From: Ostreococcus lucimarinus
Taxonomy: Eukaryota
Direction: 5' to 3' (one strand)
Length of the DNA stretch: 64,000 nt
Assembly: GCA_000092065.1 (NCBI GenBank)
Contig: CP000587.1
The notes below the pieces were generated by a model. The model was not told the DNA's origin. It was given only the letters and a program-made list of their open reading frames with translations, and made no database searches. Shown here one piece after another: positions 13,242 to 58,417 of this stretch (position 1 is the stretch's first letter; every line of letters starts with the position of its first letter). The translations under genes were made by a program, and so were the position numbers.

Positions 13242-16200
13242 ATGGCGGTGGGAACGCGACGGGAGCGCGATGCGTCGCGAATGTCGCGCGCGCACGACGC
13301 GGATGACGCCGCGGACGCGCGACCGTGGCGATGGCGGCGATGCGGGACGTTTCACGCGTCCGAGGGAGGGATTTGGGGGACGAGCGGGACGACGACGGCG
13401 CGCGCGGCGACGCGATGGGAAAACGCGCCGCTGGAGGGGTTCGGTTTGCGCTTCGCGAGCGATGCGGAGGAGGAGACGACGACGCGCGCGCGAGCGTTGG
13501 AGGCGTGCGCGAGAGAAACGCTCGGAGAGGGCGGGTTGACGAATGAGATGTTGGAGGAGACGGCGCGCGCGACGACGACGCCGAGCGCGGCGAGCGACGA
13601 CGCGGCGACGATTTCGAACATCGAGACGCGGTTGGCGTCGACGCGCGCGATGTTGAGGGGATTGGGCGTCGATGAAGCGAAAACGAAAGCGGTGATGGCG
13701 CGGGCGATGGACGCGTGGGGAGGGGAGATTCGAGAACGCGAACGAATCGTCGACGCGCTGGAGACGCGCTTGCTCGAGGGAGACGAGGACGAGGAGGCGT
13801 TGAATTACATCTTGCGTCGTGCGGTGGCGCGGTTGAGGGTTTTGAAGACGAGTGGAGCTCGTTCGAGGGTCGGCTTGCGGGCGTGTGTGGCGAGCGCGAC
13901 GGCGTCCGTCGCCGCGGCGTCCACCACCGCGGCCGTCGCGGCAAAGTCTACGCCCATCGCGAAGAAAGGCCGCGGTGGAATGTTCTCTTGCTGCGGCGCA
14001 GATTCGACGGCGATCGATGACGACGCTCAAGAGCTCGCGTACGCGCCTTCGGAAAGTGCAGCCGTTGAATGCGAACCGCTTACTTGCGTCGTACGTCTTT
14101 CACGCGTTGGGGAAGAAACGGCGAGCGCATACTCGTCGACATCTCGCGCATACTCGTCGACATCTCGCGCATCTTCGCGAGAAGGAGGCGTTTTGTTCAA
14201 CGCCACGACTCCGTTATTGACCGTTTCCGAAGATGACACGATTGAGTTCAACTTTTACGCGGGCGACGCGCACGAATCCGTCGACGAGAGTGCAGTCGAT
14301 GCGAATGATAGGATGCGCGCCAACGCCGTCATGTCGCCGCACGTCGGGGAAACAAGTGGCAAGATTAGAGGAAGCGCCACCATTTGTGTCGCAGATTTAG
14401 CAGAGACGACGAGAAAAGACGAACCGCACGTGCTCACGATTTTCATCGAGCGGCCGAAGAGTGGAGGGTCACCGGGTCAGGTCTACGGTAAAGCAATCGT
14501 ACGCATTGACAAGTTCGTCGAATCGTTTGACGACGGAACGACGCAGATCGCGACGGCGAAGGGCGACGTTCTGAAAGATGCCGCCGTGCTTTTCGCGGCG
14601 CTCGACAAGTCGAGTGTGCCAAATGTAAAACAGCTTGTGCGCAGCTTCGTGGATCAGCGCGGCGCATGCCCGTCCATTGCTGCACTGGCCGAAATGATTA
14701 CGCTTTGCATTGATTGGCGACTCGAACGCCCGCAACTTGATAGATTACGCCACTGCACAATGGAAGTGTTCGCGGCAATTGCGGTGAATCGAATTACGGC
14801 GAGTGAGAAGCAGCGGTTTGACGAACTTTCCGCGCTCATGTCGAAACAACTAGAAACAGAGCTGTGCAATATTTTGCCGACGGCAAAAGTCGCCGAGCAA
14901 GAACTCGTCGATGTGCTTGACATGGAGTATTCTGCCAGTATCGCCCGCGCGATCATTCCATTATTTGCTTTGACCCTTGGGAGCATTTCAGCCACTCGGC
15001 TCGTGTTGCGGTTGAAAAAGGTCGTTCGCGAGGCCATGCGTAAACGTTGTGTCGAGCACATGGTGAGGGAAAATCCGACAAAGGGCCCTCCCACGGTTGC
15101 GTGCGTGACGTCTATGATATGCAAACTCACCAAACGTTTGCCGCTCGACGCTGCGATTTTATCGCAGTTTCCGTCCGAAGTAGAAGCTCTTTCGGAGGCT
15201 GCGTCGGCGTCGAGTGCTTTCATCGCAAACATTATTACTGAAGTATTTCAGGCGATCGCGAGCATGCGTAGCCCGCCTGATTACGACTCCGGGATGATGG
15301 CACTAGACGATGCGCTGTGCGCGCACAGGAGGGCATTAAAGCGATATGATTTGGTGCTTGCTATGCAGCCGATTTCGTCCCGGTTCATCGATCGGCTCCT
15401 TCAGCCGGCTTTGGATGAAACGCTAGGCACAGTACACCATGCGCTGGTTGCGTGGGTCAAGCAAGAAATTGATGGCGAAAGAACAAATTTAGAGCCCGTG
15501 GACGTCGAAAGAGGAGCGATGCACAGTATGTCGTGCGTCAATCTTTTTTGTGTACTCTACAACATCGATAGAGCAGCGCAAGATCACATTCTTCACGGCG
15601 AAAGAGCGGCGTTCAACGCTACATCGTTGAGTCAAATGTGCTATGAAGTGTTTAAGACGTACGTCAATATTTATGAAAGAGCGTGCTTGGAGGCGATCCA
15701 GAACGCGCGCTTGCATTTGATGCAAGACTCAAAGGGGCAGAATACGAAGACGGCGAATGTTTCGGACGTAAAGTCTCTGATGGTTGGTAACTTTTACACG
15801 CGTCTAAGTAATATTCATCAGTGCATCCTCGCGATCGAACCGTTCATGGAAGAGATGCCGTTACTGTGGTGTTCGTCAAAGTCGGAGTTCGACGAGACAC
15901 TCAAGCGTCAAGCGAGCTCGGAGTATGGTATCGATGACGATCAAGTGATATTGTTTGAGGACGATGAAGTCCATGTCTTCGACGAGAAAAGAATGCTGGA
16001 TACTGATTTCTTCGCGAACAGAATTGTACAGAAACTTCGCACCGTTCGCGCAAACGTCATTGCGTCATTAACGGAGTTGATCGAAGAACGGATTGCACCG
16101 TTTATTCGTGTCGCTATTCTTGACAAGGAAGAAAAGACACGTTCTGCGGCGGTACGCATAGTCTTCATGATGATTGACTCGGAGCTCAAGCTTATGAACG

Positions 16201-17498
16201 AGAGGCTTGCGCCAGGGGCGTTTCGACTGGCGTTGTCTTCGATGCACAAAGGGGTGTGTGATGCGATCGAACAACTCATCCTACACAGACCGATAGAGGA
16301 GGGAGCGCTAGAAGCCAGTGAGCGTTGGAGAGGATTACCAACGCTCACAGAAATGCAACATTCCTTAGTCGTCGAGCTCATGGCAGATGTCAGAGAATTC
16401 TTCCACTGCGACGGTGCCGGCGAGCCTGAGTCAATTCTCAAGGATGGCGAAGGCAGACTGCGCCGTTTGTTGAATTTATGGTTTACGCCCACGATCGAGA
16501 TTATGCGAGAATTCTGGCAGTTGAAAGAAGTATTGTCCCGATCGATCGTTTCGGCGCATGGCAAACAAATCCGACTGCGGTCGATCGGTGGAGTGGCCGT
16601 TCAAGACATCTTGCGCTTTTTGCGTCAGCGTTCAAACGACGCAACAGCAATGGATCTTTACAACGAACAGAGCATGCTGATTACGAAAATGAGTCTAAAA
16701 GCACTCTTTGGCGAACAGTTAATGAGTATCGACTCTTTACTCGGTGCCTGGGTTTGCCGCGATGGTTCTGGCTTAATAGGACGATTCTACATCACGGCTA
16801 CGCAATTGGCGTTTTCGACATCTGGAATGAGCATCGATCACCCGCACGACAGCCAGACAGCGGTCGTCCGAGAGATTCGCAGAATCGCGAACATCTCGCG
16901 TATCGATGCTGCTGATGGTACGCCTGGGCTTCGCATCACATTCGACGATCGTCGATCATTCACTTTCAGTGAATTCGGTGGAATGCACACCGAGTTAAAC
17001 ATTCAAGCTCGAGAGAGGGATTCGTGCGTCGCGGTGATTCGCACGAATCCTTGCTTCTTGCAGCGTCCGGTATTCATGCACGATATTCAAGTCGCACAAA
17101 TTTCAGATCATGCGTGCGAGACTTTAGATGAGGTTGTCAGCGTAGAAACGGCGCAGCGAATGGAGCCACCCACTCTGCCGGCGGATGAGGAAGTGATCGC
17201 CACGTGCGTCTGCGCGCGTGCGAACGGCTTAGCACGCGACTTGGGGAAGTTTACGGTGGCGAGCCAATCGTGCGTGTTTTTACCAGTCAACGGGTCAGGT
17301 CGTGGAGTGTTGTATAAGACTATGACGTCAACGAAGAGGATGCCACAGTTGCGGCCATTCGGTTGGAAGAATGCTGATATCATCATCCCGATACGACATT
17401 ACGAAGAACCCGTGTTGCGCTTGACGGGGATGACGCTCGTTGAAGCCCAGTCGGTTTTCGACGCACTGTCGAGCGCCATTACCGCTTACAAAAGTTAG
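13242..17498 (+). CDS. large uncharacterised protein (1418 aa); possible C2-like region, long helical middle, C-terminal PH/GRAM-like domain
   Basis: Uninterrupted 4.26-kb ORF with ordinary, lower-GC composition. C2-like stretch HVLTIFIERPKSGGSPGQVYGKAIVRIDKF. C-terminal LIGRFYITATQLAFSTSGMSI...GLRITFDDRRSFTFSEFG resembles PH/GRAM folds. The N-terminal 300 aa are low-complexity, so the true start may be downstream. Confidence 0.6.
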   Translation: MAVGTRRERDASRMSRAHDADDAADARPWRWRRCGTFHASEGGIWGTSGTTTARAATRWENAPLEGFGLRFASDAEEETTTRARALEACARETLGEGGLTNEMLEETARATTTPSAASDDAATISNIETRLASTRAMLRGLGVDEAKTKAVMARAMDAWGGEIRERERIVDALETRLLEGDEDEEALNYILRRAVARLRVLKTSGARSRVGLRACVASATASVAAASTTAAVAAKSTPIAKKGRGGMFSCCGADSTAIDDDAQELAYAPSESAAVECEPLTCVVRLSRVGEETASAYSSTSRAYSSTSRASSREGGVLFNATTPLLTVSEDDTIEFNFYAGDAHESVDESAVDANDRMRANAVMSPHVGETSGKIRGSATICVADLAETTRKDEPHVLTIFIERPKSGGSPGQVYGKAIVRIDKFVESFDDGTTQIATAKGDVLKDAAVLFAALDKSSVPNVKQLVRSFVDQRGACPSIAALAEMITLCIDWRLERPQLDRLRHCTMEVFAAIAVNRITASEKQRFDELSALMSKQLETELCNILPTAKVAEQELVDVLDMEYSASIARAIIPLFALTLGSISATRLVLRLKKVVREAMRKRCVEHMVRENPTKGPPTVACVTSMICKLTKRLPLDAAILSQFPSEVEALSEAASASSAFIANIITEVFQAIASMRSPPDYDSGMMALDDALCAHRRALKRYDLVLAMQPISSRFIDRLLQPALDETLGTVHHALVAWVKQEIDGERTNLEPVDVERGAMHSMSCVNLFCVLYNIDRAAQDHILHGERAAFNATSLSQMCYEVFKTYVNIYERACLEAIQNARLHLMQDSKGQNTKTANVSDVKSLMVGNFYTRLSNIHQCILAIEPFMEEMPLLWCSSKSEFDETLKRQASSEYGIDDDQVILFEDDEVHVFDEKRMLDTDFFANRIVQKLRTVRANVIASLTELIEERIAPFIRVAILDKEEKTRSAAVRIVFMMIDSELKLMNERLAPGAFRLALSSMHKGVCDAIEQLILHRPIEEGALEASERWRGLPTLTEMQHSLVVELMADVREFFHCDGAGEPESILKDGEGRLRRLLNLWFTPTIEIMREFWQLKEVLSRSIVSAHGKQIRLRSIGGVAVQDILRFLRQRSNDATAMDLYNEQSMLITKMSLKALFGEQLMSIDSLLGAWVCRDGSGLIGRFYITATQLAFSTSGMSIDHPHDSQTAVVREIRRIANISRIDAADGTPGLRITFDDRRSFTFSEFGGMHTELNIQARERDSCVAVIRTNPCFLQRPVFMHDIQVAQISDHACETLDEVVSVETAQRMEPPTLPADEEVIATCVCARANGLARDLGKFTVASQSCVFLPVNGSGRGVLYKTMTSTKRMPQLRPFGWKNADIIIPIRHYEEPVLRLTGMTLVEAQSVFDALSSAITAYKS

Positions 17499-17575
17499 AC
17501 GTCAAAAACGCGAAAGAACAGCAGAGTAGCGGTGTGATATATCATTATGTAGTCGTAGCAAATCGTGTTTCATAT

Positions 17576-20500
17576 CTACGCTGCGTCCAATTCAACAGTC
17601 AACACGGCGAGGTTGTCGTTTATGATGGATGAGTACGTTTCGACGGCATCTGGCAAAATCTCTTCGAGCGCTGAAATGAGCTTTTGCGTTTGTTTGAGCC
17701 AGTCGATTGCTTCCTTCGTTCGCATCGATCTCTCATGTCGAACGGCACGGTTGAAACAAGTTGAGAGCAACCACTGCGCTTCCACTGGGGGATATGAAGG
17801 ATGCAGTGCGAGGAACTCTTCGGCCGAGTCGTAAAGCGAGTGAATCACGTCGTCTTTGCTTTTGTACACTCGCGAAGCGAGTTGAATTTGTTTACGCATT
17901 AATCGCGCGATGAGAGCAACGTCTTGAATCAAATACTTCTTCATAGCTTTCCCAACCGCTTCATATGCTCTCGAAACGGTGACCAAATCAGACGTTCTCA
18001 TCGCCGCGCCGCGGTCGGCAATCATCAAGAGCGTGTTTATTGAAGCTTCGTCATCCAACGTCTTTGTCGATAATATTTCGATTATTTTGCCTTGCAACGC
18101 GACGTCACGCTGGGCGCAAGCGATTTCATATTCAAGGACACTCGCAACCTTTCGCAACTCTTCGTACCTTTCCTCTTCAGCGTTTTTCAACAAGCTGTGG
18201 AGATTGGCCATCGCACCCTTTGAGCGGGCGATATTCTTCGCTTCGCGTTCTTTCCGAGATTGTTCGTCTCCTACATCAGTAGCTGGGTTATAGCTGGTGA
18301 GCGATGCGATGGACAACAGAAGCGCGACTGCTTGTCGATAGCCATACTCTGCACGATCGTCTGCATCCAAACCTTCTGGAATCTTGTTTAATTTGGAAAT
18401 CACAAGCGCACATAAAAACATAAACTGATAGGCCGCTTCTGTTTCTGACGACTTTTCGTACGCGTCGAGGCCAGTATTCCACGAAAAGTCGGCGAGATAC
18501 CGTGCCTGTCGAACATCTGTGAGAAGATTCAAATTCGACGCTCGCTTCATGAACTCGCTGAACAACTCGGCTGATTCAGAAAACGTCTTCGAGTCAAAGT
18601 CACCCATTTTGGCCATTTTTACGTGTCGCAGATAACTGCAAAATATAAAAGTCTCTTGCTTCATCATATTATCGGTACCCATATTGTTCAAAATCATATC
18701 GTAAAGGCTACGAAAAGCGTCTGCGGCCGTGGCGTGGTGCTTTGAGCCATCGAGTTCTCCCGCAACGTATAACAACGCATCAGATTCACCTGCCTTTGCA
18801 AACGTTCGAATCGATTCTCCCAGGCCCGAGACGTCGTCAGAAATGAGCTGAAACTTTACGTTCAACAATGTTGTGGACACATCCGTCGCGGTCTTGTCCG
18901 CCAGCAAACTTCGCAGCGACTCCTTTGCTTGTTCGATATCGCCATTCTCGAGATCGCACATCACTTGCAGCCGGATAACCGGTACCGCTGCGTTGCTCAC
19001 GGTCTTCGACTTTCTTTGTGACGATAATGGGAGCGTCATACCAAACAGTTTTCGTGCCAGTGAGTACTTATTTTGCATGTACATGTCAGATGCAGCGTTC
19101 CAGATGATGGCGTATGCACGAGATTGCCCGTCGCGAGAAAAACCGATTTCCTTGAAACTATCGGTATCTGTAAGAAGTCGATCCATATAAGACAGAACAT
19201 CGTTTGCTACTTGTTCATCTACAGTGAGCGTCGTATCCAGTAGAGCTTCAAAGATATCAGTAATCATTTCTTGTCGTCTCGCCTTTGGACAGCCGCTCAG
19301 TCGTTTGGCGAGCGGAGCGATGCACGACGCAACGGCGCCAGCGCCGCATTCGCTCTTCGCCAGATTGACACAGCACGTATGGAGGACATTCACAACAGAG
19401 TTTTCATCGTTGAGTACATTTTCGAGTATGCTGCACGCTTTCGAAATCTCACCACTCCCTGAGAACGCTTCAATCAGCATGTTGTCCATGAGAAACGATT
19501 CGGTTAACGCCTGCAAATCGCGAGCCAAGACGTTATCACTATTTTCACACTTTTTCGCGTAAGACTTGATTATTTTCATTTTATCCAACACTTTAAGAGC
19601 CTCGTTGTACCTTCTTCCGTGAATGAATAGTCTGGCAAGGTTATGCAAGATGCGAATGTACAAACCATCGGCGCGAACCAGGCGGTGGTCCTCGCACACG
19701 AGTTTCTCATCTAAATCAAAGTGCGCCGCGTTATCTTGATGGGAAGACGTCGACCAAGAATTCGGAGTGATCGTGAACAAGTCGTAGTATGCTGCGATTA
19801 GCTCTTTGACGAGGAAACCAACTTTTCTGTCGAACACGGCTTCGTCATCTGCTGATTGAAGCTTTTCTGAAACCACGAAATTCTCAGCCAAGTTTATCTT
19901 CGCGCTGATCAATGTCGTTACGCACATAGTCTCATTTCCTTTATTCTTTTCGCTTTCAGAAAGCGATTTGGCGTCTTGAAAAAAGTCCCGAGCACCGGCG
20001 ACGTTGCCGAGATAAAAACAGTTCTTTGCGCGTGACGTGGCGGCTTCAATCGTCTGTAACATTGTCTCGGCGTCGAATTCGCCATTTCGGTTCAAGAACG
20101 AATTACCGTATGATTCACCGATCACGAACTGCTCTTCCGCCGCCTTGAACTCACCCGCATCGTGCAGCAACTTTGCGAGCGTCAAGTGATTTGAAATGCC
20201 GACAGCGAGACTCGAAATTTCAGGCGCCCCAGCGCTCACAGCGAAGCCATCCGCAAATCCCAACGCGGCGTCCAGCAACTCACACGCGAAGTACCTCAAA
20301 TCAAGCAACGGACCAATCATTTCCTTCTTCACAATCCCGCTTTCCGCCGTCGTCTCCAACGCCGTTTTCTCGATTGCGAAATTCCAGCATCGTTGCGACA
20401 TGTGCCTCGCTAAATCGCTCGCCTTCGTCGCATTCGTCGACCACAAATCTCGCAATCGCTCACTCACCCGCCGCACCTCACTCACCGTATTCGTCATCTC

Positions 20501-20938
20501 ATCCTCGCTCGATATTCTCTTCGCCAATTCCGCGCGCTTCAAAGAATCATGAAACGTCGTCCAGACATCATCCATCGCGTCGCGCTCCGGCGTCTCCGAT
20601 CTCGCCGCGCCGCGCGTCTTCGTTGTCTCCGAGACGCCACCATCCTCCGCACCCGCTCCGTCGCTCTCGCGCCGCTCCAGCCCCGCGCCTATAGAAACTT
20701 CGCTCAAAGAAATATCCATCAGCGCTTCCGCGCCTTTTCGAGCGCCCGTCGGCGTCGCATCGCGCGGTGCCGTCCTCGTTTCGTCGCGTTTGCGTTTCGG
20801 TCCGGAATCGCTCCCAGAGTGCGTGGTTTCGCTTTTCGACGCCGCGGGCGACGCGGTCGACGCGGGTGCGTCGTCAGCGCGAGGTGGATCCGATGTGTCG
20901 GTATCGGTTCGTTTGAACGGGCTCTGGAAACCCGGCAT
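17576..20938 (-). CDS. large helical/TPR-like repeat protein (1120 aa), uncharacterised
   Basis: Uninterrupted 3.36-kb ORF of normal, lower-GC composition, predicted all-alpha with repeated amphipathic helices. The N-terminal 120 aa are S/T/P/D-rich and disordered. No catalytic motifs. Confidence 0.55.
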   Translation of the reverse strand: MPGFQSPFKRTDTDTSDPPRADDAPASTASPAASKSETTHSGSDSGPKRKRDETRTAPRDATPTGARKGAEALMDISLSEVSIGAGLERRESDGAGAEDGGVSETTKTRGAARSETPERDAMDDVWTTFHDSLKRAELAKRISSEDEMTNTVSEVRRVSERLRDLWSTNATKASDLARHMSQRCWNFAIEKTALETTAESGIVKKEMIGPLLDLRYFACELLDAALGFADGFAVSAGAPEISSLAVGISNHLTLAKLLHDAGEFKAAEEQFVIGESYGNSFLNRNGEFDAETMLQTIEAATSRAKNCFYLGNVAGARDFFQDAKSLSESEKNKGNETMCVTTLISAKINLAENFVVSEKLQSADDEAVFDRKVGFLVKELIAAYYDLFTITPNSWSTSSHQDNAAHFDLDEKLVCEDHRLVRADGLYIRILHNLARLFIHGRRYNEALKVLDKMKIIKSYAKKCENSDNVLARDLQALTESFLMDNMLIEAFSGSGEISKACSILENVLNDENSVVNVLHTCCVNLAKSECGAGAVASCIAPLAKRLSGCPKARRQEMITDIFEALLDTTLTVDEQVANDVLSYMDRLLTDTDSFKEIGFSRDGQSRAYAIIWNAASDMYMQNKYSLARKLFGMTLPLSSQRKSKTVSNAAVPVIRLQVMCDLENGDIEQAKESLRSLLADKTATDVSTTLLNVKFQLISDDVSGLGESIRTFAKAGESDALLYVAGELDGSKHHATAADAFRSLYDMILNNMGTDNMMKQETFIFCSYLRHVKMAKMGDFDSKTFSESAELFSEFMKRASNLNLLTDVRQARYLADFSWNTGLDAYEKSSETEAAYQFMFLCALVISKLNKIPEGLDADDRAEYGYRQAVALLLSIASLTSYNPATDVGDEQSRKEREAKNIARSKGAMANLHSLLKNAEEERYEELRKVASVLEYEIACAQRDVALQGKIIEILSTKTLDDEASINTLLMIADRGAAMRTSDLVTVSRAYEAVGKAMKKYLIQDVALIARLMRKQIQLASRVYKSKDDVIHSLYDSAEEFLALHPSYPPVEAQWLLSTCFNRAVRHERSMRTKEAIDWLKQTQKLISALEEILPDAVETYSSIINDNLAVLTVELDAA

Positions 20939-21013
20939 CGCGCGCGAGTCGCGCGTCGCGGAGTGGTGATTTGGGTTGATTGTTACAGTGTCTCGGCGCG
21001 CGTCGGCGTGACC

Positions 21014-30003: not shown

Positions 30004-30804
30004 CTATAATCTTGATCTAAGAGATGCGGTGTTCGCCGCGGCGTCGGCGACGTATCCCGCCTCGGCGTCGTCTAAATCCAAACCGTACTTGATCCTCGCG
30101 AGCGACGACAACTCTTCAGAGTCTAAAGTTCGCGACAACGCCTCGAACACGGTGAGTTCCTTGATTTCGTCGCCGCCATCTCGCACGCGTACCGCTTCCC
30201 CGCGCTCATTGATGCGAAAACCGACGTCTTCGGCGCGGTTCAACATCAAAGAAATCTCCCTTCGCGCCTCTGGAGGCGTCTCGGACCTCAGCACCACGCT
30301 CGGCAACCCATTCACGATCGCCTCTCTCAGCCCGGCGTCTCGCGTCAGCGCGTCGCCGTAACGAATTCTCCTCGATCGTTCCCATCGTCGCTCGAACACG
30401 CTCGGCACGTCGTACTCGATCAACTTGAGCGCCAAATTTAAGTGCGACGACCCGAGCGTGGCGTAAGCCCACCGCCGCGACGCCCACGTTCGCGCCGACA
30501 CCTCCGGGAGCACGCGCGCGTTCGCCCGCGAGAACGCCTCCCACCGTCGATACGCGTCTGATTTCAGCATATCTCGCGCCCGTTCGCGCACGACGACCGG
30601 AACGTCGTGGTTTTCGTTGAATCCATCCTCGCAAATCGACATCGCGATGCCGTGGGCGTGTTCAAGCGAGACGCCGCTGTTCGCCCTGTTCGTCGCGTCG
30701 GGGATGACGAGACGCGGCAAGACGCGCTGCATCTTCGGTTCTCGCCATTTAGAGAGCAGCGCGTTGAGGCGAACGACGTCGCCGTCATCGGCGTCGTGGG
30801 CCAT
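30004..30804 (-). CDS. hypothetical protein (266 aa)
   Basis: ORF of non-junk composition (..VLPRLVIPDATNRANSGVSLEHAHGIAMSICEDGFNENHDVPVVVRE..). No recognised motif. Confidence 0.4.
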   Translation of the reverse strand: MAHDADDGDVVRLNALLSKWREPKMQRVLPRLVIPDATNRANSGVSLEHAHGIAMSICEDGFNENHDVPVVVRERARDMLKSDAYRRWEAFSRANARVLPEVSARTWASRRWAYATLGSSHLNLALKLIEYDVPSVFERRWERSRRIRYGDALTRDAGLREAIVNGLPSVVLRSETPPEARREISLMLNRAEDVGFRINERGEAVRVRDGGDEIKELTVFEALSRTLDSEELSSLARIKYGLDLDDAEAGYVADAAANTASLRSRL

Positions 30805-30850
30805 GGAGTGCGGCGCTCGACGAATTCAATTCTGTTACAAACGCGCGGCG

Positions 30851-31723
30851 TCAGCCCCAAATTTTCTTGGTCATCTCGTCAGGCGTCGGCTCGCTCGGGT
30901 ACGTGCCCAGCAACACGTACTGTTCTAATTCACGAGCTCCCGTGCGCTTGTACAACTCCCACTCGTTTTCGTAGTACGCGAAGCGCAGGGCGCCGTAAAT
31001 TGGGAAAAAATACGGCTTGCGATACAACAGCCGAAAATGGTACACCTCCTTCCACGCCGCGACGGCGTCCATGCGCTCCTTCCTCCCTCGCACCGACATC
31101 ACGTTCCCCGCGGACTGCACGTCGTCCAACCTCGGATTAATCATGATCATCGGCTTATCGCCCACGACCGCCTCCATCTCCTCGATGTACGGCAGCACCG
31201 AGTACCCCACGATGTTTTGCGGCTGCACCAATATGAAACAATCCGCCCCCTCGCCGTCCGCCGCGCCGATCCCACCGCTCGGGTCGATCATTCCCTCCGT
31301 CCCCGGTTCCCAATCCATCATCCCGAGCAATTTCGACACCCCGCTCAGGCTCAGCGGCAGCGCTTGAAACACTCCCTGTCCCATGCTTCGCTGCACGCAA
31401 ATCTTCACTCGCAACCCGTCGCGCGCCAGCGCCGCCGCCGTCTCGCGCACGAGCTCCAGCGTCGTCCCGACGCGATACACGTCACCGTTTACGTTCAGCT
31501 CCGGGAACTCGCTCTTGATCTTGATGCGTCGCTCGCGCGCCGTCACCGCGGCGACGATCGACTTCGTCGCGTCCTCGTAAAACCATCGCCGCGTCGCGCG
31601 CGCGTGCGGCACGTTGTTCAGCAGCGTCGGGACGTCGACGCCGGCGTTCGCGCGCGACTTGGGCGACGCGCGTCGCGCGCGCGCCGGCCGCGCGAACGCC
31701 GGCGCGGTCGTCGACGCGCGCAT
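30851..31723 (-). CDS. DUF1995-like protein (plastid-type protein of unknown function), paralog 1, with N-terminal presequence
   Basis: The track ORF starts with GTG at 31738; the first ATG is at 31721-31723 (MRASTTAPAFARPARARR...). Conserved blocks ..CFILVQPQNIVGYSVLPYIEEMEAVVGDKPMIMINPRLDD.., ..YHFRLLYRKPYFFPIYGALRFAYYENEWELYKRT.. are shared with the second copy at 56316-57329. Confidence 0.6.
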   Translation of the reverse strand: MRASTTAPAFARPARARRASPKSRANAGVDVPTLLNNVPHARATRRWFYEDATKSIVAAVTARERRIKIKSEFPELNVNGDVYRVGTTLELVRETAAALARDGLRVKICVQRSMGQGVFQALPLSLSGVSKLLGMMDWEPGTEGMIDPSGGIGAADGEGADCFILVQPQNIVGYSVLPYIEEMEAVVGDKPMIMINPRLDDVQSAGNVMSVRGRKERMDAVAAWKEVYHFRLLYRKPYFFPIYGALRFAYYENEWELYKRTGARELEQYVLLGTYPSEPTPDEMTKKIWG

Positions 31724-31751
31724 GACTGTCGTCGTCACTCAGAGGCGCGCG

Positions 31752-31765
31752 ATGGGATCGACGCG

Positions 31766-31796
<31 letters not shown>

Positions 31797-32966
31797 GGAC
31801 GCGGCGAGGCGTCGGCGACGGCGACGCGCGACGCGATGGCGGCGCCGGAGGCGAGCGCGGCGACGGGCGCGGACGAGGACGCGTACGACGACGCGGTGGA
31901 GACGCGCGACGACGAGGCGGAGGTCGAGGCGGAGGTCGAGGAGGAGGTCGAGGAGATCGTCGTCGACGGCGCGGTCGGCGCGATGCAGCGCTCGGGTGAG
32001 CTGACGCGTGAACTTCGAGAGGAGGCGGAGGAGGAGGACGAGGCGTCGCTGGAGGAGGATATATCGCGAGAGGAGGCGCTGTCCACGGCGACGGAGATGA
32101 TAAAGTCCGTCGCGAACGGGGACGAAGCGCTGGACGCGGCGAGGTTAGGGAGCTTGTTGTGGGCGCTGAGTAACGCGCTATTGGAAGATTTGACGGATAG
32201 GGATGATTTGCGAGTGCCGGGAAATTCGCTCGAGACGTTTCCGGTGGAATTGGTGCGAGATATCATGGCAAACATCGAAACCTTGGTGATTGCGTTGACG
32301 TTTGAACCCGAAGACGCCGTGACGCAGCGAAGCGGACAAAAGATTCCGGCGATTGGGTCCCATCGCGTCGCGGCGGCGGAGATTTTGGCCGTGCTCTTGC
32401 AAATCGGATGTCAAGACATCGATGAGCGCATCGCAAAGCTCAAGCTTCCGAGCGACGGTCAGTTTGTCCTCGTGTCGCTCGTGCGCATGTTTTTCAAGTA
32501 CAATTGGAGTTCGGCTCTGCACGCGACGGTGATTCGTTTGATTCTCGCCGCGTTGGTGAGCCCACATGAACCGCTGTGGGCGCCGATGTTTGAAGGCGGT
32601 GAAGAGAGTCTTCAAGGCTCGCTCGCGAAATCCATCAAGGAAGCGTTGGCGACCAAGCCGATTTCAACGCGTCTGGGGAACGTGGGGAGTGTGATCATCT
32701 TGGCCAACGCGCTTTGTGAACTCGAAGCGTGCGACGACGTCGAGCGCGCGAGCGTTCGCACGACGCTGCAAGAGGATCCCGCGTGGCGCGCCACCGTGGA
32801 GGGCGAAAACAACAGTTTGGCGAAGCTAAACGAAGAGCAGGCGGGCGGTTTGTGCGGCCCAAAGCCGACAAAGTCGCCCGCGTTCATGGATTCGGGCATG
32901 GGCTCCAACGTCATCAGCAGCCAAGAGTTGCTGAGGATGTTGCAACACATCTCGCTCGGACAGTAA
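31752..32966 (+). CDS. SAPS-domain protein (PP6/SIT4 phosphatase regulatory subunit-like) with acidic N-terminal region
   Basis: The ORF runs from 31614, but the first ATG clear of the divergent gene is 31752 (MGSTRDDDDDDDDD...). ..ILAVLLQIGCQDIDERIAKL...VLVSLVRMFFKYNWSSALHATVIRLILAALVSPHEPLW.. resembles the SAPS family block FFKYPWNNFLH. Confidence 0.55.
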
Positions 32967-48538: not shown

Positions 48539-49015
48539 TCACGAGTGCACGCTGACGGCCTGCGTGCGATCGAGCAAGGGATGCACGATCGCGTACACCA
48601 AATCCACCGAACACGTGAACAGCACCAACGCCGCGTACAGCACGACGATCGACCTCGAATCGTCCACGCGCAAGTCGCCGTCGAAGTCGACGCGTCGGCA
48701 CGCGTCCACGCGCCTCCGGTGCAGCACCGCGAGCTCGATCGCGGCCAAGATGCAAGATCCGTAGATGATCGCCCCGAACGCGATCGGCACCTTGCCGCCG
48801 CGGCCGACGGCCGTTAATCCGACGCCCGTCAGCGTCATGACGCCGAGAAAGTTGAGCGAACTGTAAAACGTGCGCTCGAGCGCGAGCAGCGTCACGGCGT
48901 CGCAGCTCGCGCGGACGTCGCCGTCGTCGTCATCGCCGCGAATCGCGCGTTTCGCCTTGCCGAACGACCGAATCATCGCTCGTCGCGCGCGCGTCCGAGT
49001 GCGCGCGCGCGCCAA
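48539..49015 (-). CDS. DUF202 (YidH-like) small membrane protein
   Basis: 158 aa. LALERTFYSSLNFLGVMTLTGVGLTAVG matches the DUF202 N-E-R-T-F-L-A-W-x-R-T motif, followed by two further TM helices. Confidence 0.45.
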   Translation of the reverse strand: MARARTRTRARRAMIRSFGKAKRAIRGDDDDGDVRASCDAVTLLALERTFYSSLNFLGVMTLTGVGLTAVGRGGKVPIAFGAIIYGSCILAAIELAVLHRRRVDACRRVDFDGDLRVDDSRSIVVLYAALVLFTCSVDLVYAIVHPLLDRTQAVSVHS

Positions 49016-52987: not shown

Positions 52988-53070
52988 GCGCGCGAGAGAG
53001 TGGCGACGGGAAGCCGAGAAGACGCGGCGGAGAGGCGGCGGCGACGGTTAAGAATAATGTTACACGCGCG

Positions 53071-53982
53071 TCAGCCGCCGAATCGTTCGGGGCCGTGACC
53101 GGCGAGGGTTTTGATGGCTAAACTCAACTCCTCGGCGAAGAACGGGTTGTCTTCGTCCGATTGCGCGAACTCTTCCTCGGTCCAGAGCTCTCGCAGCGCG
53201 TTCAAGCCGACGTTGACGTCGAGCAGTAGCAAGGATGGATCGTACTCCACCAGGCGAGCGACGTTGACGCGAGGAAAGGCGTCGCGAAGGGCGCGGAAGC
53301 GCTCTTTAATCTCTGGAATGTCGCGCTGAAGGAAGCTCTTGGAGTCTTGTCGCAAAATCGCGCCGACGTCGGCGCCAGGAATCATAGTCTTCAGCTGCGA
53401 CAATCGAGCCACGATGGCGCTCGAGCTCGTCAGGAGTAACTCTGGATACCCGTAAGCCATCTTTGCCGCATCCGCCGCGGACGAGCACAGACAAATTTGC
53501 TTGATTCGCTCCAGCGCTTCGCACAGCGCGCTCAACGTCGGTTCGCCGAGCATAGCCTCCACGGCTCTCGAATCCTCCTCCATTTCGCACGCGATCACCC
53601 CTCGCTCAAGATCCATCACGAGCGCCATCGTGTACTCGGCGGCCATCTGATCGAATCCCGTTCGCGTCTCCCCCCCCGCTCGCCAGAAATCCCGCACCTC
53701 TCGCTCCGCGTCCAATCGACGCGCCTTTTCGCTTCGCTTCAGCCTGCGCACCGCGTCCTCGATCGTCCGCTCGCCTCCCGGCGGTAAGCTCCCATCCTGT
53801 CGTCGATACGGTAAATCATACAAAAATTCCCCGTACGCCGCCGCGAGCGCGTCCAGCGGTCCCTTCACAAACTTTTCGCGCGTCTTTCGCGCGCCGAATG
53901 AAATCTCGCTCAGCCAATTCAACGTCGTCGCGATCCCGGGCTGGAATCCGCGCGCGCGCTCCGACATCAGCGCCGCGCGCAT
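53071..53982 (-). CDS. hypothetical helical protein (possibly mTERF-like repeats)
   Basis: The track ORF extends to 54534 through Arg-rich sequence. Non-biased composition begins near ATG ~53980-53982 (MRAALMSERARGFQPGIATTLNWLSEISFG...). Repeated ..P.LL....(20-30 aa)...L... periodicity; no firm family call. Confidence 0.4.
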   Translation of the reverse strand: MRAALMSERARGFQPGIATTLNWLSEISFGARKTREKFVKGPLDALAAAYGEFLYDLPYRRQDGSLPPGGERTIEDAVRRLKRSEKARRLDAEREVRDFWRAGGETRTGFDQMAAEYTMALVMDLERGVIACEMEEDSRAVEAMLGEPTLSALCEALERIKQICLCSSAADAAKMAYGYPELLLTSSSAIVARLSQLKTMIPGADVGAILRQDSKSFLQRDIPEIKERFRALRDAFPRVNVARLVEYDPSLLLLDVNVGLNALRELWTEEEFAQSDEDNPFFAEELSLAIKTLAGHGPERFGG

Positions 53983-54255
53983 GGCGTCGTAGTCGTTGTC
54001 GAAATCGTCCGGGTTTTTCGGCGCCCGCGTCGCGCGGCAGCGCGCGCGTTGTCGTCGCCGACGATGCCGCTCTGGACGACCGCGCGGCGCGACGGACGCG
54101 CCGCGCGACGCGCGCGCGACGCGCGACGCGGGCGGCGACGACGTCGTCGTCGTCGACGACGACGTCGACGCGACCGGGCGCGCGCGCGCGCGCTCCATCG
54201 CGCCGCGCTCGACTCTGCGGCGTCGTCGTCGAATCGACACTCGCTGACGCGCGCG

Positions 54256-54834
54256 ATGGCGCGCTCGAGCGTCGACCGCGCGCTCGACCGCGTCGCGCGC
54301 GTCGCGAGTCACGTCGACGCGTCGTCCGCGACTCGCGACGACGCGCGCGACGCGCGCGCGCGCGCGATGGCGGCGTACGTCGCGGAAAACGCCGCGGGCG
54401 CGGTGGTGCACGCGAGCGACGACGCGACGCCGTGGATCGACGTCGATCAGCGCCGCATCGACGCCTTCGCGACGTGCGCGAACGATCATCAATACATACA
54501 CGCGCGCGACGCCCCGGGCGGGGCGATCGCGCACGGATTCTTGACGCTGAGCCTGCTGACGCCCGCGACGGCGGCGCGCACGACGCCCGCGTGGTCGACG
54601 CGCGCCGTCAATTACGGCCTCAATCGCGTCCGTTTCGTCCGACCCGTGCGCGCGGGCGCGCGCGTCCGCGCGCGGGCGATCAAAATCGTCGCCGCGCGCG
54701 CGTTACCCGACGCCGCGGGCGCGGAAACGGAGTATTTAGTCGAATTAGAAACCGCGCCGAGCGCGTCGTCGGCGTCCGCCGAGCGCGCCGAGCTCGCCTT
54801 GGTCGCGTCTTGGATCGTCCGTCACTACGTCTGA
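54256..54834 (+). CDS. MaoC-like (R)-hydratase / hotdog-fold protein
   Basis: IDAFATCANDHQYIHARDAPGGAIAHGFLTLSLL is the MaoC dehydratase motif (DxN/HxxHxD...GxIAHG). The ORF is open from 54049, but the upstream part is poly-Arg junk; ATG at 54256-54258 (MARSSVDRAL..). Confidence 0.7.
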   Translation: MARSSVDRALDRVARVASHVDASSATRDDARDARARAMAAYVAENAAGAVVHASDDATPWIDVDQRRIDAFATCANDHQYIHARDAPGGAIAHGFLTLSLLTPATAARTTPAWSTRAVNYGLNRVRFVRPVRAGARVRARAIKIVAARALPDAAGAETEYLVELETAPSASSASAERAELALVASWIVRHYV

Positions 54835-56315: not shown

Positions 56316-57329
56316 TTAGTTCGATAACGACTTCGCAAATCGCTGCATCTCACGCATCATCCCCAAAACCTTTTCAGCCGCAGTCTTTTCCGTCGCCTCG
56401 CCATCCTCGCCCACGGGTCGAAGCGCTGCGTCGACGATATCGTCAAGTTCCTCGCCCGCCGGTCGCTGCGCGTACTCATCAATGAGCTTGAACCGTCCCG
56501 GCTCCTCTGGGTCTTCCAAGAAAAGTTTCCACGCGCTCGGATACGACTTGTACAGACTCCCATTGCACCACGGCAGAGGTCTCAAAGAGTACGTGACCGT
56601 CATCTTTCCTAAAAAGTTGTCTCTCATGCGCCGAACGTTCAATCCAACCCCGGCGTCGCCGCTCGCCAATCTCGGATTCAACAGCACCACCGGATACCCC
56701 AACTCGTTCGCTCGACCCGTGGCCTTTTGTACCTTCTCTAAAGACATCGGATCCGGCGCCGCGAACACCAAAACGCCCTCGAAATCATCCGTCACCAAAT
56801 TCCTATCGTCCACGCTCGCCACCTCAAACGCGACGTCGTCTCCCCACCGCGCTCGCAACATCGCCGCCGCGCCCGCGTCCGGGAACACCGCCTTCACCCC
56901 AGTCGCACCACTCGCGCTCAATTTCGACAAAAACTCTCGAGAGATCTCCCACACTTTCAGTTGATCACCCGATTCGCTCATCACGTTTCCGCTCATCGGG
57001 TCCCAGAGCTCTGGGATGAGCAGCTCGACGATGCTTCCCGCGACCCCACGCTGCATGGCGTCTCGCGTCGCCTTCGCCGCTTGCCCGACGGCGTCGAAGA
57101 GGTTATCCGGCAGCACCTCGTCCTCACGCGGCGCCGGCGCCGCCGCGACCGGCGCGAGCGAGCGATCGTCGTCGTCCCCGCTCGATGTGGATAAACGCGC
57201 AAACTTTTGCGCCTTCGTTCGCGTCGTCGCCGCCGCGCCGCGTCGCGAGCGCGTCCCCGGCGTCGCGCGATGCGATGCCTTGGTCAGCGTCGCGCATCGC
57301 GTCGTCGTCGTCGTCGCGCTCGAAATCAT
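56316..57329 (-). CDS. DUF1995-like protein, paralog 2, with N-terminal presequence
   Basis: 337 aa, true ATG at 57327-57329. Blocks ..GVLVFAAPDPMSLEKVQKA...PVVLLNPRLASGDAGVGLNVRRMRDNFLGKMTVTYSLRPLPWCNGSLYKSYPSAWKLF.. align with 30851-31723 (NPRL, Y.FR.LY, G.L.R.Y...W.L). Confidence 0.6.
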   Translation of the reverse strand: MISSATTTTTRCATLTKASHRATPGTRSRRGAAATTRTKAQKFARLSTSSGDDDDRSLAPVAAAPAPREDEVLPDNLFDAVGQAAKATRDAMQRGVAGSIVELLIPELWDPMSGNVMSESGDQLKVWEISREFLSKLSASGATGVKAVFPDAGAAAMLRARWGDDVAFEVASVDDRNLVTDDFEGVLVFAAPDPMSLEKVQKATGRANELGYPVVLLNPRLASGDAGVGLNVRRMRDNFLGKMTVTYSLRPLPWCNGSLYKSYPSAWKLFLEDPEEPGRFKLIDEYAQRPAGEELDDIVDAALRPVGEDGEATEKTAAEKVLGMMREMQRFAKSLSN

Positions 57330-57361
57330 GTCGTCGTCGTCGCACTCCGAGGCGCGCTGTG

Positions 57362-58417
57362 ATGTCTGCGGTCGCGCGAAGCGCGCAGGGCACGCCGCTC
57401 GACGGCGCGCCGCTCGCGACGACGGCCGTCGTGATCGCGGTCGCGATATCTTTCGCGCTCGCGCTCGCCGCGAACGGCGATTTCGCGCGCGTGTGCGCGT
57501 CGCCGCGGTTGGCGTTTGAACATCCGCTGTCGAGCTATCATCGCGTCTGGACGTCGACGTTCTCGCACGGGAGCTTCCCGCACGCGCTGCTAAATTGTCT
57601 AGCGTTCGTTCCGATGGCGTCGGCGCTCGAGCGATCGATCGGGACGACGCACTTCGCGTGGTTATTCGCGACGTTCGCGCACGCGGCGTACGCGCTCTCG
57701 GCGAGCGCGGCGACGGCGCTTTGGATGGCGCTCGGATATCGCGCGTCGTACGAGAGCTGCGCCATAGGAATGTCTGGGGTGGTGTTCGCGCTGATCGTGT
57801 GCGAGACGAACGTGAACGACGTGGAGCGGCGAAGCGTGTTCGGGTTGTTCACAGTGTCGAGCGAGTATTACCCGATCGCTCTTCTGCTTTTCATTCAACT
57901 TTTGATGCCTGGCGTCTCTTTCATCGGTCACGCGGGTGGTATCGCGGCTGGATGGTTGTACGTTCGCGGATACTTGAACTTTTTGCTCCTGAAGGAGACG
58001 CACGTGGAGTATTTAGAGAAATTAGCGATTTGCGCGCCCGCGCGCGCCCTGGCGTCGTTCGTGCCGTCAAACGCCGATCGGGGCGCGCGGCCGAACGCGG
58101 AGGCGAGTTCGACCGCATTTCCCGCGTTTTCGACGGTTAGAGCGATCCCGACTCGTATGAGTGAGGTGACGCGCAACGCGTTCGCGGGTAATTTCCCGGG
58201 CCAAGGACGGAAACTTGGCGGCGACGGGTCCACGACGGGTGAGATGGCGAATCTCGTTCGGGTCGATCCTCGGGCGTTGGATACGTTAGTAGAGCTGGGA
58301 TTCGCAGAACACGCCGCGCGGCGAGCGTTGCAAGAATGTGACGGCGACTCGCAGCGTGCGATCGAGTTGTTGACGGAATCAGCGGCGCACGACGCGAATA
58401 GCGACGAAATAGTTTAG
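57362..58417 (+). CDS. rhomboid-family intramembrane serine protease with C-terminal UBA domain (RHBDD1/plant RBL-UBA type)
   Basis: Active-site GMSGVVFAL (GxSG) and a downstream His in FIGHAGGIAAGWL within about 6 TM helices. C-terminal UBA ..LDTLVELGFAEHAARRALQECDGDSQRAIELL... The ORF is open from 57185; ATG at 57362-57364. Confidence 0.8.
   Translation: MSAVARSAQGTPLDGAPLATTAVVIAVAISFALALAANGDFARVCASPRLAFEHPLSSYHRVWTSTFSHGSFPHALLNCLAFVPMASALERSIGTTHFAWLFATFAHAAYALSASAATALWMALGYRASYESCAIGMSGVVFALIVCETNVNDVERRSVFGLFTVSSEYYPIALLLFIQLLMPGVSFIGHAGGIAAGWLYVRGYLNFLLLKETHVEYLEKLAICAPARALASFVPSNADRGARPNAEASSTAFPAFSTVRAIPTRMSEVTRNAFAGNFPGQGRKLGGDGSTTGEMANLVRVDPRALDTLVELGFAEHAARRALQECDGDSQRAIELLTESAAHDANSDEIV

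What the first reader, a model, noticed from the sequence alone, without database searches (positions are those of the whole stretch)
56316..58417. Second DUF1995 paralog in the same head-to-head configuration, with a 32-bp ATG-to-ATG gap (rhomboid-UBA partner) and a similar junction sequence
The two DUF1995-like genes (30851-31723 and 56316-57329) are both on the minus strand. Each is divergently paired with a plus-strand gene, at 28 and 32 bp. Their junctions share the sequence catg(ac/t)cgtcgtcgtc(g)cactc(c)(a)gaggcgcgc, which partly encodes the poly-Thr N-terminus (MTTTV.. / MISSATTTTT..). This suggests a segmental duplication that carried the 5' end and upstream sequence, and then acquired or retained a divergent partner at each site. 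It could alternatively be a conserved compact bidirectional promoter module.
Basis: seen in the sequence. Interest (0 to 1): 0.55.

Follow-up and report, generated by a model that had tools for sequence, protein, structure and literature searches.

The report
Look-alike promoters of two old paralogs
Two very distantly related chloroplast-type DUF1995 genes in an Ostreococcus-like green alga each sit back-to-back with an unrelated gene across a roughly 30-base gap, and the resemblance between the two gaps comes from short promoter words common in this genome, not from a shared duplication, so the finding is ordinary.

Summary
DUF1995-A (30851-31723, minus) faces a SAPS gene (ATG 31752) across 28 nt. 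DUF1995-B (56316-57329, minus) faces a rhomboid-UBA gene (57362-58417) across 32 nt. Both gaps read (GTC)n-CACTC[A/C]GAGGCGCGC-ATG. The shared string is non-coding and does not encode the poly-Thr.

The duplication reading fails:
- The paralogs share 18-21% protein identity and have no colinear DNA similarity.
- They fall in clades that split before chlorophytes and streptophytes diverged.
- A relative with 91% CDS identity has a 217-nt A junction without the motif.
- A 99.3% identical strain already varies in the GAGG piece.
- Sister-species B junctions (61-116 nt) lack the 15-mer in this orientation.

The string is built from generic promoter-proximal words of this genome: GCGCGC just before ATG (9/36 genes), CACTC (8/36) and GAC/GTC repeats. 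A third, unrelated short divergent pair (54199-54255) has the same layout. CACTCNGASGCGCG also precedes two other window genes.

Among 630 promoter pairs the A/B pair scores highest (21, against 19 for the next), so it is not an outlier. After repeat masking the residue is unremarkable. Best reading: two independent compact bidirectional promoters that converged in composition. Interest is low.

The parts
56316..57329 (-). DUF1995-B gene (337 aa). The N-terminus is rich in Ser/Thr/Ala/Arg and looks like a transit peptide. It belongs to the clade that includes land-plant DUF1995 proteins.
   Evidence: Pfam PF09353 E 7.6e-46. Orthologues are 72-79% identical in other Ostreococcus-like contigs and 35-40% in land plants. 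NJ tree.
57330..57361 (.). 32-nt divergent junction B: GTCGTCGTCGTCGCACTCCGAGGCGCGCTGTG. It is non-coding. It probably holds the rhomboid gene's transcription start and short leader.
   Evidence: Sequence. Identical in six metagenome samples. An out-of-frame plus-strand ATG at 57328 argues, under the scanning model, that the rhomboid TSS lies inside the junction (inference).
57362..58417 (+). Rhomboid-UBA gene (351 aa). GMSG and GHAGG catalytic-type motifs are visible in the sequence.
   Evidence: Pfam Rhomboid E 1.7e-19 and UBA E 1.5e-8. The divergent pairing with DUF1995-B is kept in three sister lineages. In a 52% relative it is still upstream but about 2 kb away.
57300..57342 (.). Interrupted (CGT/GTC)n trinucleotide array that spans the DUF1995-B start codon. 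The inner part encodes TTTTT and the outer part is the junction (GTC)4.
   Evidence: TRF: period 3, 14.7 copies, 72% matches.
30851..31723 (-). DUF1995-A gene (290 aa, ATG start), in the chlorophyte-only clade among the hits recovered.
   Evidence: Pfam PF09353 E 1.3e-36. Orthologues. NJ tree.
31724..31751 (.). 28-nt divergent junction A: GACTGTCGTCGTCACTCAGAGGCGCGCG. It is a young, derived state and is polymorphic.
   Evidence: Sequence. L138 (99.3% CDS identity) has ...CACTCAGGCGCGCGCGCG, 30 nt. L135 (about 91% CDS identity) has a 217-nt junction. Sister species have 255-406 nt.
31752..32966 (+). SAPS-domain gene (404 aa), a putative PP6/SIT4 phosphatase-associated subunit, with a poly-Asp tract encoded by a perfect (CGA)9.7 array at 31766-31794.
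   Evidence: Pfam PF04499 E 1.1e-10. TRF. The pairing with DUF1995-A is kept in L011-L013 and L135.
54199..54255 (.). Third ultra-short divergent junction (57 nt), between a 375-aa protein without a Pfam hit (53069-54198, minus) and a MaoC dehydratase (54256-54832, plus). It has the same order of elements: GTCGTCGTC..CACTC..GCGCGCG-ATG.
   Evidence: The composite pattern matches only at 31728, 54222 and 57330 in the window (the tool also lists an overlapping second match at 57333).
48988..49001 (-). Further copy of the promoter-proximal word CACTCGGACGCGCG, 11 nt upstream of the ATG (48976) of an unrelated 145-aa gene.
20997..21010 (-). One-mismatch copy (CACGCCGACGCGCG) 58 nt upstream of the ATG (20938) of a 1120-aa TPR gene. 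A second, two-mismatch copy lies at 20951-20965.

Best explanation
These are two independent, compact bidirectional promoters in an Ostreococcus-like (Mamiellales) nuclear genome. Each lies between an ancient DUF1995 paralog and an unrelated neighbour.

The junctions look alike because both are assembled from the same small vocabulary of promoter-proximal and leader words used by many genes in this genome:
- a GAC/GTC trinucleotide microsatellite next to the minus-strand gene's ATG;
- a CACTC word, which fits the initiator consensus YANWYY, about 16-19 nt upstream of the plus-strand ATG;
- an alternating GCGCGC tract directly before that ATG.

Inferred mechanism: the plus-strand gene (rhomboid-UBA, SAPS) initiates inside the junction near CACTC and has a leader of about 15-18 nt. 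The DUF1995 gene initiates in or beyond the junction, so the two transcription units abut or overlap at their 5' ends.

Shown:
- gene identities, distances and ancient paralogy;
- absence of the motif in orthologous junctions;
- within-species polymorphism;
- recurrence of the words at unrelated promoters.

Inferred:
- TSS positions;
- the initiator role of CACTC;
- any regulatory consequence.
For: Ancient paralogy:
- 18-21% identity, BLASTP E 0.01.
- B has land-plant orthologues at E about 1e-45.
- The tree shows two deep clades.
- There is no colinear DNA similarity.

Young and unconstrained junctions:
- Junction A is 217 nt in L135.
- Junction A is 255-406 nt in L011-L013.
- Junction B is 61, 71 and 116 nt in sister lineages, without the 15-mer in this orientation.
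- L138 differs from the window exactly in the GAGG/(CG)n piece.

Generic vocabulary:
- GCGCGC lies within 10 nt of the ATG in 9/36 genes, against 2.8% expected (p 4.5e-7).
- The related GCGCG word lies within 8 nt of the ATG in 7/33 sister-species genes (p 3e-4).
- Sense CACTC occurs in 8/36 upstream regions, against 5.2% expected (p 4.6e-4).
- GACGCG occurs in 18/36, against 3.6 expected.
- CACTCNGASGCGCG with at most 1 mismatch has 6 hits in 137.8 kb, and 5 of them lie within 58 nt upstream of an ATG in sense orientation.
- CACTCNGAGGCGCGC with at most 2 mismatches has 9 matches, against 2.3 expected.
- A third unrelated short junction has the same layout.

Ranking and background:
- The A/B pair is top of 630 promoter pairs but not an outlier.
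- The masked residue is ordinary.
- In my map of 36 ORF-predicted genes, 18 sit in 9 head-to-head pairs (ORFs, start regions).
- O. tauri is reported to have 2288 bidirectional transcript pairs (PMC4035068).
Against: - The A/B pair is still the single best-scoring of 630 promoter pairs.
- The exact 15-mer pattern occurs nowhere else in the window.
- Both DUF1995 genes fall among the only three junctions under 60 nt (about 2% by chance).
- CACTC and (GTC)3 are not enriched upstream of the 33 sister-species genes sampled. Part of the 'vocabulary' may therefore be specific to this lineage, or driven by the three short junctions themselves.
- No transcript or TSS data were available.
Confidence: 0.72

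Rival explanations
1. This lineage uses a real, reusable compact bidirectional core-promoter cassette, (GTC)n-CACTC-GC leader, whenever two divergent start codons come within about 60 nt. The A/B likeness then reflects selection for that cassette and not just shared composition.
For: - The composite GTCGTCGT-N(0-12)-CACTC-N(1-10)-GCGCGC maps to three sites in the window, and these are the three shortest divergent junctions (28, 32 and 57 nt).
- None of 100 dinucleotide shuffles gave a match.
- All three sites have the same polarity.
- The Mamiellales-like contigs L015, L108 and L067 carry the composite 17-50 nt upstream of long-ORF ATGs.
- L010 has GTCACTCTGACGCGCGC in the orthologous B junction.
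Against: - The pattern's spacers were set after seeing the third junction.
- There are only three cases.
- The cassette is absent from the orthologous junctions of L007, L009, L011-L013 and L135.
- The GAGG piece varies between strains.
- In L010 the word points the other way.
Confidence: 0.17
2. A recent short-patch copy, by template switching or ectopic conversion, moved about 25 nt from junction B to junction A, 25.6 kb away on the same strand. This would have happened during the deletion that shrank junction A from about 217 nt to 28 nt. The likeness would then be true homology, but recent and tiny, and unrelated to the DUF1995 duplication.
For: - Junction A is derived and younger than about 9% CDS divergence.
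- A and B match at 22 of 23 aligned bases with one 1-nt gap.
- They are the best of 630 promoter pairs.
Against: - The patch is too short to tell from chance, given the generic words.
- There is no flanking homology.
- An internal segment of the L135 junction (GTCTTCGTCGTCGCCTTAACGCGACGCGC) already resembles both junctions (scores 10 and 14). Local descent by flanking deletions is therefore enough.
- The third junction has the layout without sequence identity.
Confidence: 0.07
3. One reading: a segmental duplication copied a DUF1995 gene together with its 5' end and upstream sequence, and each copy kept or acquired a divergent partner.
For: - Both genes belong to the same Pfam family.
- They lie on the same strand and in the same head-to-head geometry.
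- Their junction strings are similar.
Against: - Protein identity is 18-21%.
- The two clades separated before the chlorophyte-streptophyte split.
- There is no colinear DNA similarity.
- The junction string is absent from orthologous junctions, even at about 91% CDS identity.
Confidence: 0.02

Closest known systems
Bidirectional (head-to-head) gene pairs with short shared promoters in Ostreococcus and other compact Mamiellales genomes
   Same: - The genes are divergent with a very short spacer.
- About half of the window's genes sit in such pairs: 9 pairs among 36 ORF-predicted genes.
- 2288 bidirectional transcript pairs are reported for O. tauri (PMC4035068).
- The partner genes are functionally unrelated.
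   Different: - At 28-32 nt from ATG to ATG, these are at the extreme short end. Other pairs in the window are 57, 202, 215, 227, 628, 651 and 717 nt.
- Orthologous pairs in relatives are 61-406 nt.
DUF1995 (PF09353) plastid protein family, whose characterised member is LPA3 (Low PSII Accumulation 3), a PSII assembly factor. Chlamydomonas has three paralogs: LPA3, Cre06.g281800 and Cre08.g369000 (PMC8448359).
   Same: - Both window proteins match the full DUF1995 profile.
- Both have N-terminal extensions rich in Ser/Thr/Ala/Arg, as expected for transit peptides.
- The presence of several ancient paralogs per green genome matches the Chlamydomonas picture.
   Different: - Which window paralog, if either, is the LPA3 orthologue was not determined.
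- B groups with land-plant proteins of about 336-347 aa named only 'DUF1995 domain protein'.
- A's named relatives are labelled 'adenylate kinase' by JGI, presumably by transfer from AK-DUF1995 fusion proteins (my knowledge, not tested).
Initiator (Inr, YYANWYY) elements of TATA-less core promoters
   Same: - CACTCC and CACTCA fit YANWYY at 5-6 of 6 positions.
- They sit 16-19 nt upstream of the plus-strand ATG.
- Sense CACTC is enriched in the 60 nt before start codons in the window (8/36 against 5.2% expected).
   Different: - No TSS data exist here.
- The enrichment was not reproduced in 33 sister-species genes.
- The Inr assignment is a resemblance recalled from general knowledge, not a test.
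Rhomboid proteases with a C-terminal UBA domain (the plant RBL15 / animal RHBDD-type architecture)
   Same: - A rhomboid domain plus a UBA domain.
- GxSG and a downstream His-containing motif are visible in the sequence.
   Different: - Orthology to a specific named member was not tested.
- This is relevant only as the neighbouring gene.

Membership tests
DUF1995 (PF09353) | A full-length match to the Pfam profile above the gathering score (26 bits). | tested here: met
   B scores 157 bits over profile positions 1-196 of 197. A scores 126.9 bits over positions 2-196 of 197.
Recent segmental duplicates (paralogs that share flanking DNA by descent) | A colinear nucleotide alignment extending through the CDS and flanks, with protein identity well above family background. 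| tested here: not met
   - blastn with word size 7 gives only short low-complexity hits in both orientations. The best colinear junction hit is 78% over 50 nt, E 0.002.
- Protein identity is 18-21%.
Recent segmental duplicates (paralogs that share flanking DNA by descent) | The paralogs are each other's closest relatives in a phylogeny. | tested here: not met
   In the NJ tree, B clusters with chlorophyte and streptophyte proteins (Capsella, pea, Chlorokybus). A clusters with Pyramimonas and Bryopsis proteins.
Conserved cis-regulatory module | The motif is retained at orthologous positions in related species while the flanking neutral sequence diverges. | tested here: not met
   - Junction B in L007/L008 and L009 lacks it. 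L010 has a similar word in the opposite orientation.
- Junction A in L011-L013 and L135 lacks it.
- The GAGG piece is polymorphic in L138.
Recurrent promoter-proximal motif (generic core-promoter or leader word) | Positional enrichment just upstream of start codons of unrelated genes, in sense orientation. | tested here: met
   - 5 of 6 hits of CACTCNGASGCGCG (at most 1 mismatch) in 137.8 kb lie within 58 nt upstream of an ATG.
- There are 9 matches against 2.3 expected at up to 2 mismatches.
- GCGCGC and CACTC are both enriched upstream of start codons. The sample is small.
Initiator (Inr) element | Transcription starts at the A of YYANWYY. | not testable with these tools
   No transcript 5'-end data were available. 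Only the sequence fit and the position support it.
Bidirectional gene pair | Adjacent genes on opposite strands, head-to-head, less than 1 kb apart. | tested here: met
   The gaps are 28 and 32 nt. Both pairings recur in sister lineages.
Bidirectional gene pair | Co-expression of the two partners. | not testable with these tools
   No expression data were available.

The most novel reading that the evidence does not exclude
This uncultured Ostreococcus-like lineage has evolved a minimal bidirectional core-promoter cassette of about 30-60 nt: a (GTC)n run, an Inr-like CACTC and a GC-rich leader. The cassette would appear whenever divergent genes collapse onto each other. Junction A would have acquired it within the last ~9% of CDS divergence, by deleting about 190 nt. 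The three shortest junctions in the window would then be natural examples of the smallest eukaryotic two-way promoter.
Probability: 0.17. Interest if true: 0.4.

Novelty: new member of a known kind. Interest (0 to 1): 0.15.

Why it matters
It matters little. The result removes a false lead: there is no duplicated DUF1995-plus-promoter module.

It also gives a caution for reading compact, GC-rich algal genomes. Start-proximal regions share so much low-complexity vocabulary (GCGCGC-ATG, GACGCG, GAC/GTC repeats, CACTC) that unrelated promoters can align over 20 or more bases.

The only modest point of interest is that 28-57 nt ATG-to-ATG junctions exist and can arise quickly. If TSS data were obtained, they would be convenient natural test cases for how small a eukaryotic bidirectional promoter can be.

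Tried and rejected
1. MAFFT alignment of the B junctions across sister lineages. The sequences were too diverged to align, so I read the junctions directly instead.

2. Metagenome-wide scan with the composite pattern. About 10 Mamiellales-like loci were picked out by tetranucleotide correlation. It gave no genome-wide frequency.

3. Searching the extra Mamiellales-like loci for more independent copies of CACTCNGASGCGCG. This added nothing useful.

4. E2F-like GCGCGAAA in the L007 and L010 junctions. I considered this as a conserved element, but it is absent from the window junction, so I dropped it.

5. A bZIP/CRE-like TGACGTCA in L010, and TGACG in junction A. It is not shared by junction B, so I dropped it.

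6. Rfam and tRNA scans of the whole window. Both found nothing.

7. Literature search for Ostreococcus TSS or promoter motifs. It found nothing directly usable.

8. The GTG start ('MTTTV') for DUF1995-A. I rejected it because it follows an in-frame TGA, is a non-ATG start in a eukaryote, and is not conserved in L135.

9. The upstream in-frame ATG at 31722 for SAPS. It is unlikely to be the start, because the L138 junction is 2 nt longer and puts it out of frame.
Full report
**What the window is.** The window is a compact, GC-rich (about 60%) eukaryotic nuclear segment. It carries back-to-back intron-poor genes (PABP, ATR kinase, TBC/RabGAP, SAPS, WD40 and others). The exact proteins occur only in marine metagenomes, where they are very common (859 index blocks). 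The nearest named relatives are Ostreococcus: an O. mediterraneus cluster at 75% identity. I therefore treat it as an uncultured Ostreococcus-like Mamiellales lineage. Rfam and tRNA scans found no RNA genes.

**Checking the observation.**
- DUF1995-B is the minus-strand ORF 56316-57329 (337 aa; PF09353, E 7.6e-46).
- DUF1995-A is 30851-31723 (290 aa from its ATG; E 1.3e-36).
- B faces a rhomboid+UBA gene (57362-58417; Rhomboid E 1.7e-19, UBA E 1.5e-8).
- A faces a SAPS-domain gene (31752-32966; E 1.1e-10).
- The ATG-to-ATG gaps are 32 and 28 nt.
- Junction A reads CAT|GACTGTCGTCGTCACTCAGAGGCGCGCG|ATG.
- Junction B reads CAT|GTCGTCGTCGTCGCACTCCGAGGCGCGCTGTG|ATG.
- They share CATG, a (GTC)n run and the 15-mer CACTC[A/C]GAGGCGCGC (14 of 15 bases, no indel). 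That pattern occurs only at these two sites in the window.
- N-termini of orthologues support all four start codons.

One detail of the finding is wrong. The shared string is non-coding at both loci. 'MTTTV' at A requires a GTG start right after an in-frame TGA. B's TTTTT is encoded by a different (CGT)5 run inside the CDS. TRF sees the two runs as one interrupted array, 57300-57342, that straddles the start codon.

**Is it a duplication? No.**
- The two proteins align at 21% identity over 94 residues (BLASTP E 0.01) and at 18% over a trimmed family alignment.
- B has clear orthologues in trebouxiophytes, in Chlorokybus and in land plants (35-44% identity, E 1e-43 to 1e-71).
- A's recovered relatives are chlorophytes such as Pyramimonas and Bryopsis.
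- A neighbour-joining tree separates two deep clades, with streptophytes inside the B clade. The gene duplication therefore predates the chlorophyte-streptophyte split.
- At the DNA level, blastn with word size 7 finds only short low-complexity hits in both orientations. The strongest is the SAPS (GAC)n tract against B's (GTC)n in reverse orientation.
- Neutral upstream DNA cannot have survived from so old an event.

**Is the junction string conserved? No.** Both head-to-head pairings are old.
- The rhomboid-UBA/DUF1995-B pairing recurs in three sister lineages with 73-75% protein identity.
- In a 52% relative the rhomboid is still upstream and divergent, but about 2 kb away with other ORFs in between.
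- The SAPS/DUF1995-A pairing recurs in L011-L013 and L135.

The junction sequences, however, are not kept.
- B's orthologous gaps are 61, 71 and 116 nt and lack the 15-mer in this orientation.
- A's gaps are 255, 406 and 390 nt.
- In L135 (DUF1995-A 95% aa, about 91% CDS DNA identity, SAPS 91% aa) the gap is 217 nt, with no CACTC..GAGG word. The 28-nt junction at A is therefore a recent, derived state.
- In L138 (867 of 873 CDS bases identical) the junction reads ...GTCACTCAGGCGCGCGCGCG|ATG (30 nt). The GAGG piece that makes A resemble B is polymorphic within the species.
- Junction B is identical in six samples. Those were chosen for an identical protein, so this says little.

**Why the junctions look alike.** I listed the 60 nt upstream of 36 ORF-predicted start codons.
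- GCGCGC lies within 10 nt of the ATG in 9 of 36 genes, against 2.8% expected (p 4.5e-7). Only 1.8% of all ATG trinucleotides have this.
- The related GCGCG word lies within 8 nt of the ATG in 7 of 33 sister-species genes (p 3e-4).
- Sense CACTC occurs in 8 of 36 upstream regions, against 5.2% expected (p 4.6e-4). (GTC)3 or (GAC)3 occurs in 8 of 36, against 5.6%.
- A k-mer screen of positions -40 to -1 ranks GACGCG first (18 of 36 genes against 3.6 expected, p 1.4e-9). It is followed by CGACGC, CGCGAC and GCGCGC, with CACTC and CGCACT also enriched. GAGGCGCGC is a one-base variant of the generic GACGCGCGC.
- The 15-mer with up to 2 mismatches has 9 matches, against 2.3 expected.
- The 14-mer CACTCNGASGCGCG with at most 1 mismatch has 6 hits in 137.8 kb of unbiased Mamiellales DNA. 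Five of them lie within 58 nt upstream of a start ATG in sense orientation. These are A, B, a 145-aa gene (ATG 48976), a TPR gene (ATG 20938), and the DUF1995-B orthologue of L010, where the word points toward DUF1995 rather than toward the rhomboid.
- A third ultra-short divergent junction has the same order of elements: GTCGTCGTC..CACTC..GCGCGCG-ATG. It spans 54199-54255 (57 nt), between a 375-aa protein and a MaoC dehydratase. The composite pattern maps only to these three junctions in the window. I set the pattern's spacers after seeing that third case, so this is descriptive and not a clean test.

**How unusual is the A/B match?**
- Among all 630 pairs of 38-nt start-proximal segments, the DUF1995 pair scores highest (21 and 20 for the two orientations). 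The next pairs score 19, 19 and 18.
- After masking (CG)n and trinucleotide repeats, the shared residue is 8-10 nt with one mismatch. That level is reached by 2-15% of unrelated pairs.
- Being head-to-head is the default here: 18 of the 36 ORF-predicted genes sit in 9 such pairs. 2288 bidirectional transcript pairs are reported for O. tauri (PMC4035068).
- Both DUF1995 genes fall among the three junctions under 60 nt, which has roughly 2% probability by chance. Since junction A was long until very recently, this cannot be an old property of the family.

**Most likely mechanism (inferred).**
- Each junction is a TATA-less, GC-rich bidirectional core promoter made of two abutting short leaders.
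- At B, the CATG at the junction edge creates a plus-strand ATG (57328) that is out of frame with the rhomboid ORF. Under the scanning model, the rhomboid mRNA should therefore begin inside the 32-nt junction.
- CACTCC fits the initiator consensus YANWYY and would give a leader of about 18 nt (about 15 nt at A).
- At A, the corresponding ATG (31722) is in frame in the window but out of frame in L138. This again argues that it is not part of the mRNA.
- On the minus strand there is no upstream ATG for about 190 nt before the DUF1995-B start. Its TSS may therefore lie inside the rhomboid CDS, giving overlapping divergent transcripts.
- None of this could be tested without transcript data.

**Rival readings.**
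- A selected 'minimal cassette' for collapsed divergent junctions is possible (confidence about 0.17).
- A recent 25-nt patch copy from B to A is not excluded, because A is young and matches B at 22 of 23 aligned bases with one 1-nt gap. It is also not needed. An internal segment of the L135 junction already resembles both junctions (scores 10 and 14).

**Function of the genes.** DUF1995 is a plastid family whose studied member is the PSII assembly factor LPA3. Chlamydomonas has three paralogs, and mutants in two of them lose PSII function (PMC8448359). Arabidopsis At5g27560 is annotated as a chloroplast DUF1995 protein of unknown function (PMC12062884). I did not resolve which window paralog, if any, is the LPA3 orthologue. 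The partners (a rhomboid-UBA protease and a SAPS phosphatase subunit) have no evident functional link to plastid biogenesis.

**Verdict.** There is no duplicated module. The junctions are two independently shrunken bidirectional promoters built from the genome's common promoter words.

Noticed in passing
window, 40 nt upstream of the 36 ORF-predicted start codons: GACGCG occurs in the 40 nt before the ATG in 18 of 36 genes, against 3.6 expected (p 1.4e-9). CGACGC, CGCGAC and GCGCGC are also strongly enriched. This looks like a genome-wide promoter or leader word (resembling a CGCG or MCB box) whose nature is unknown to me.
   Followed up: partly
window 30804-30853: Only 46 nt separate the stop codon of DUF1995-A (30851-30853) from the ATG (30804) of the next same-strand gene (266 aa, no Pfam hit). 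CACTCC sits 6 nt before that ATG. That gene's promoter must lie inside DUF1995-A.
   Followed up: no
window 53069-54832: A third ultra-short divergent pair (57 nt): a 375-aa protein with no Pfam hit against a MaoC dehydratase. The same pair in sister lineage L007 is 103 nt apart.
   Followed up: partly
L135:2600-2900: In this close relative the SAPS start (MGSTRE.., frame -3, position 2676) and the body of the gene (frame -1, from 2639) are in different frames. This is either a real frameshift or indel in the acidic repeat, or an assembly error. The gene caller instead produced an Arg-rich false N-terminus starting in the CATG at 2894.
   Followed up: partly
window 14000-20000: A low-GC stretch (0.475-0.525, against about 0.60 elsewhere) coincides with two very long ORFs with low GC3 (0.57-0.62): 13242-17498 (plus, 1418 aa, no Pfam hit) and 17576-20938 (minus, 1120 aa, weak TPR). 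The ATR region (40-48 kb) is also lower in GC.
   Followed up: no
window 31766-31794 and L138: The perfect (CGA)9.7 array encoding the SAPS poly-Asp tract differs between strains (GAC to GGC interruption in L138). The trinucleotide arrays around both junctions are therefore hypervariable.
   Followed up: partly
L067:3983-4023: A Micromonas-like contig (GC 0.70) carries GTCGTCGTCCCACTCGAGGCGCGCGGGCGCCTC 17 nt upstream of the ATG of a 507-aa coiled-coil gene. That gene is divergent from a trigger-factor-like gene. A near-identical word therefore sits in an unrelated promoter of another genus.
   Followed up: partly
L010:3930-4000: The orthologous B junction of this sister lineage contains the palindrome TGACGTCA (CRE/bZIP-like) overlapping GAGTGAC. 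L007 and L010 both have GCGCGAAA (E2F-like). Neither is present in the window junction.
   Followed up: no
whole window versus public collections: All tested window proteins are at most about 80% identical to any named Ostreococcus sequence, yet exact copies are abundant in TARA and other marine metagenomes. The window seems to come from a common but unnamed Ostreococcus-like lineage.
   Followed up: partly
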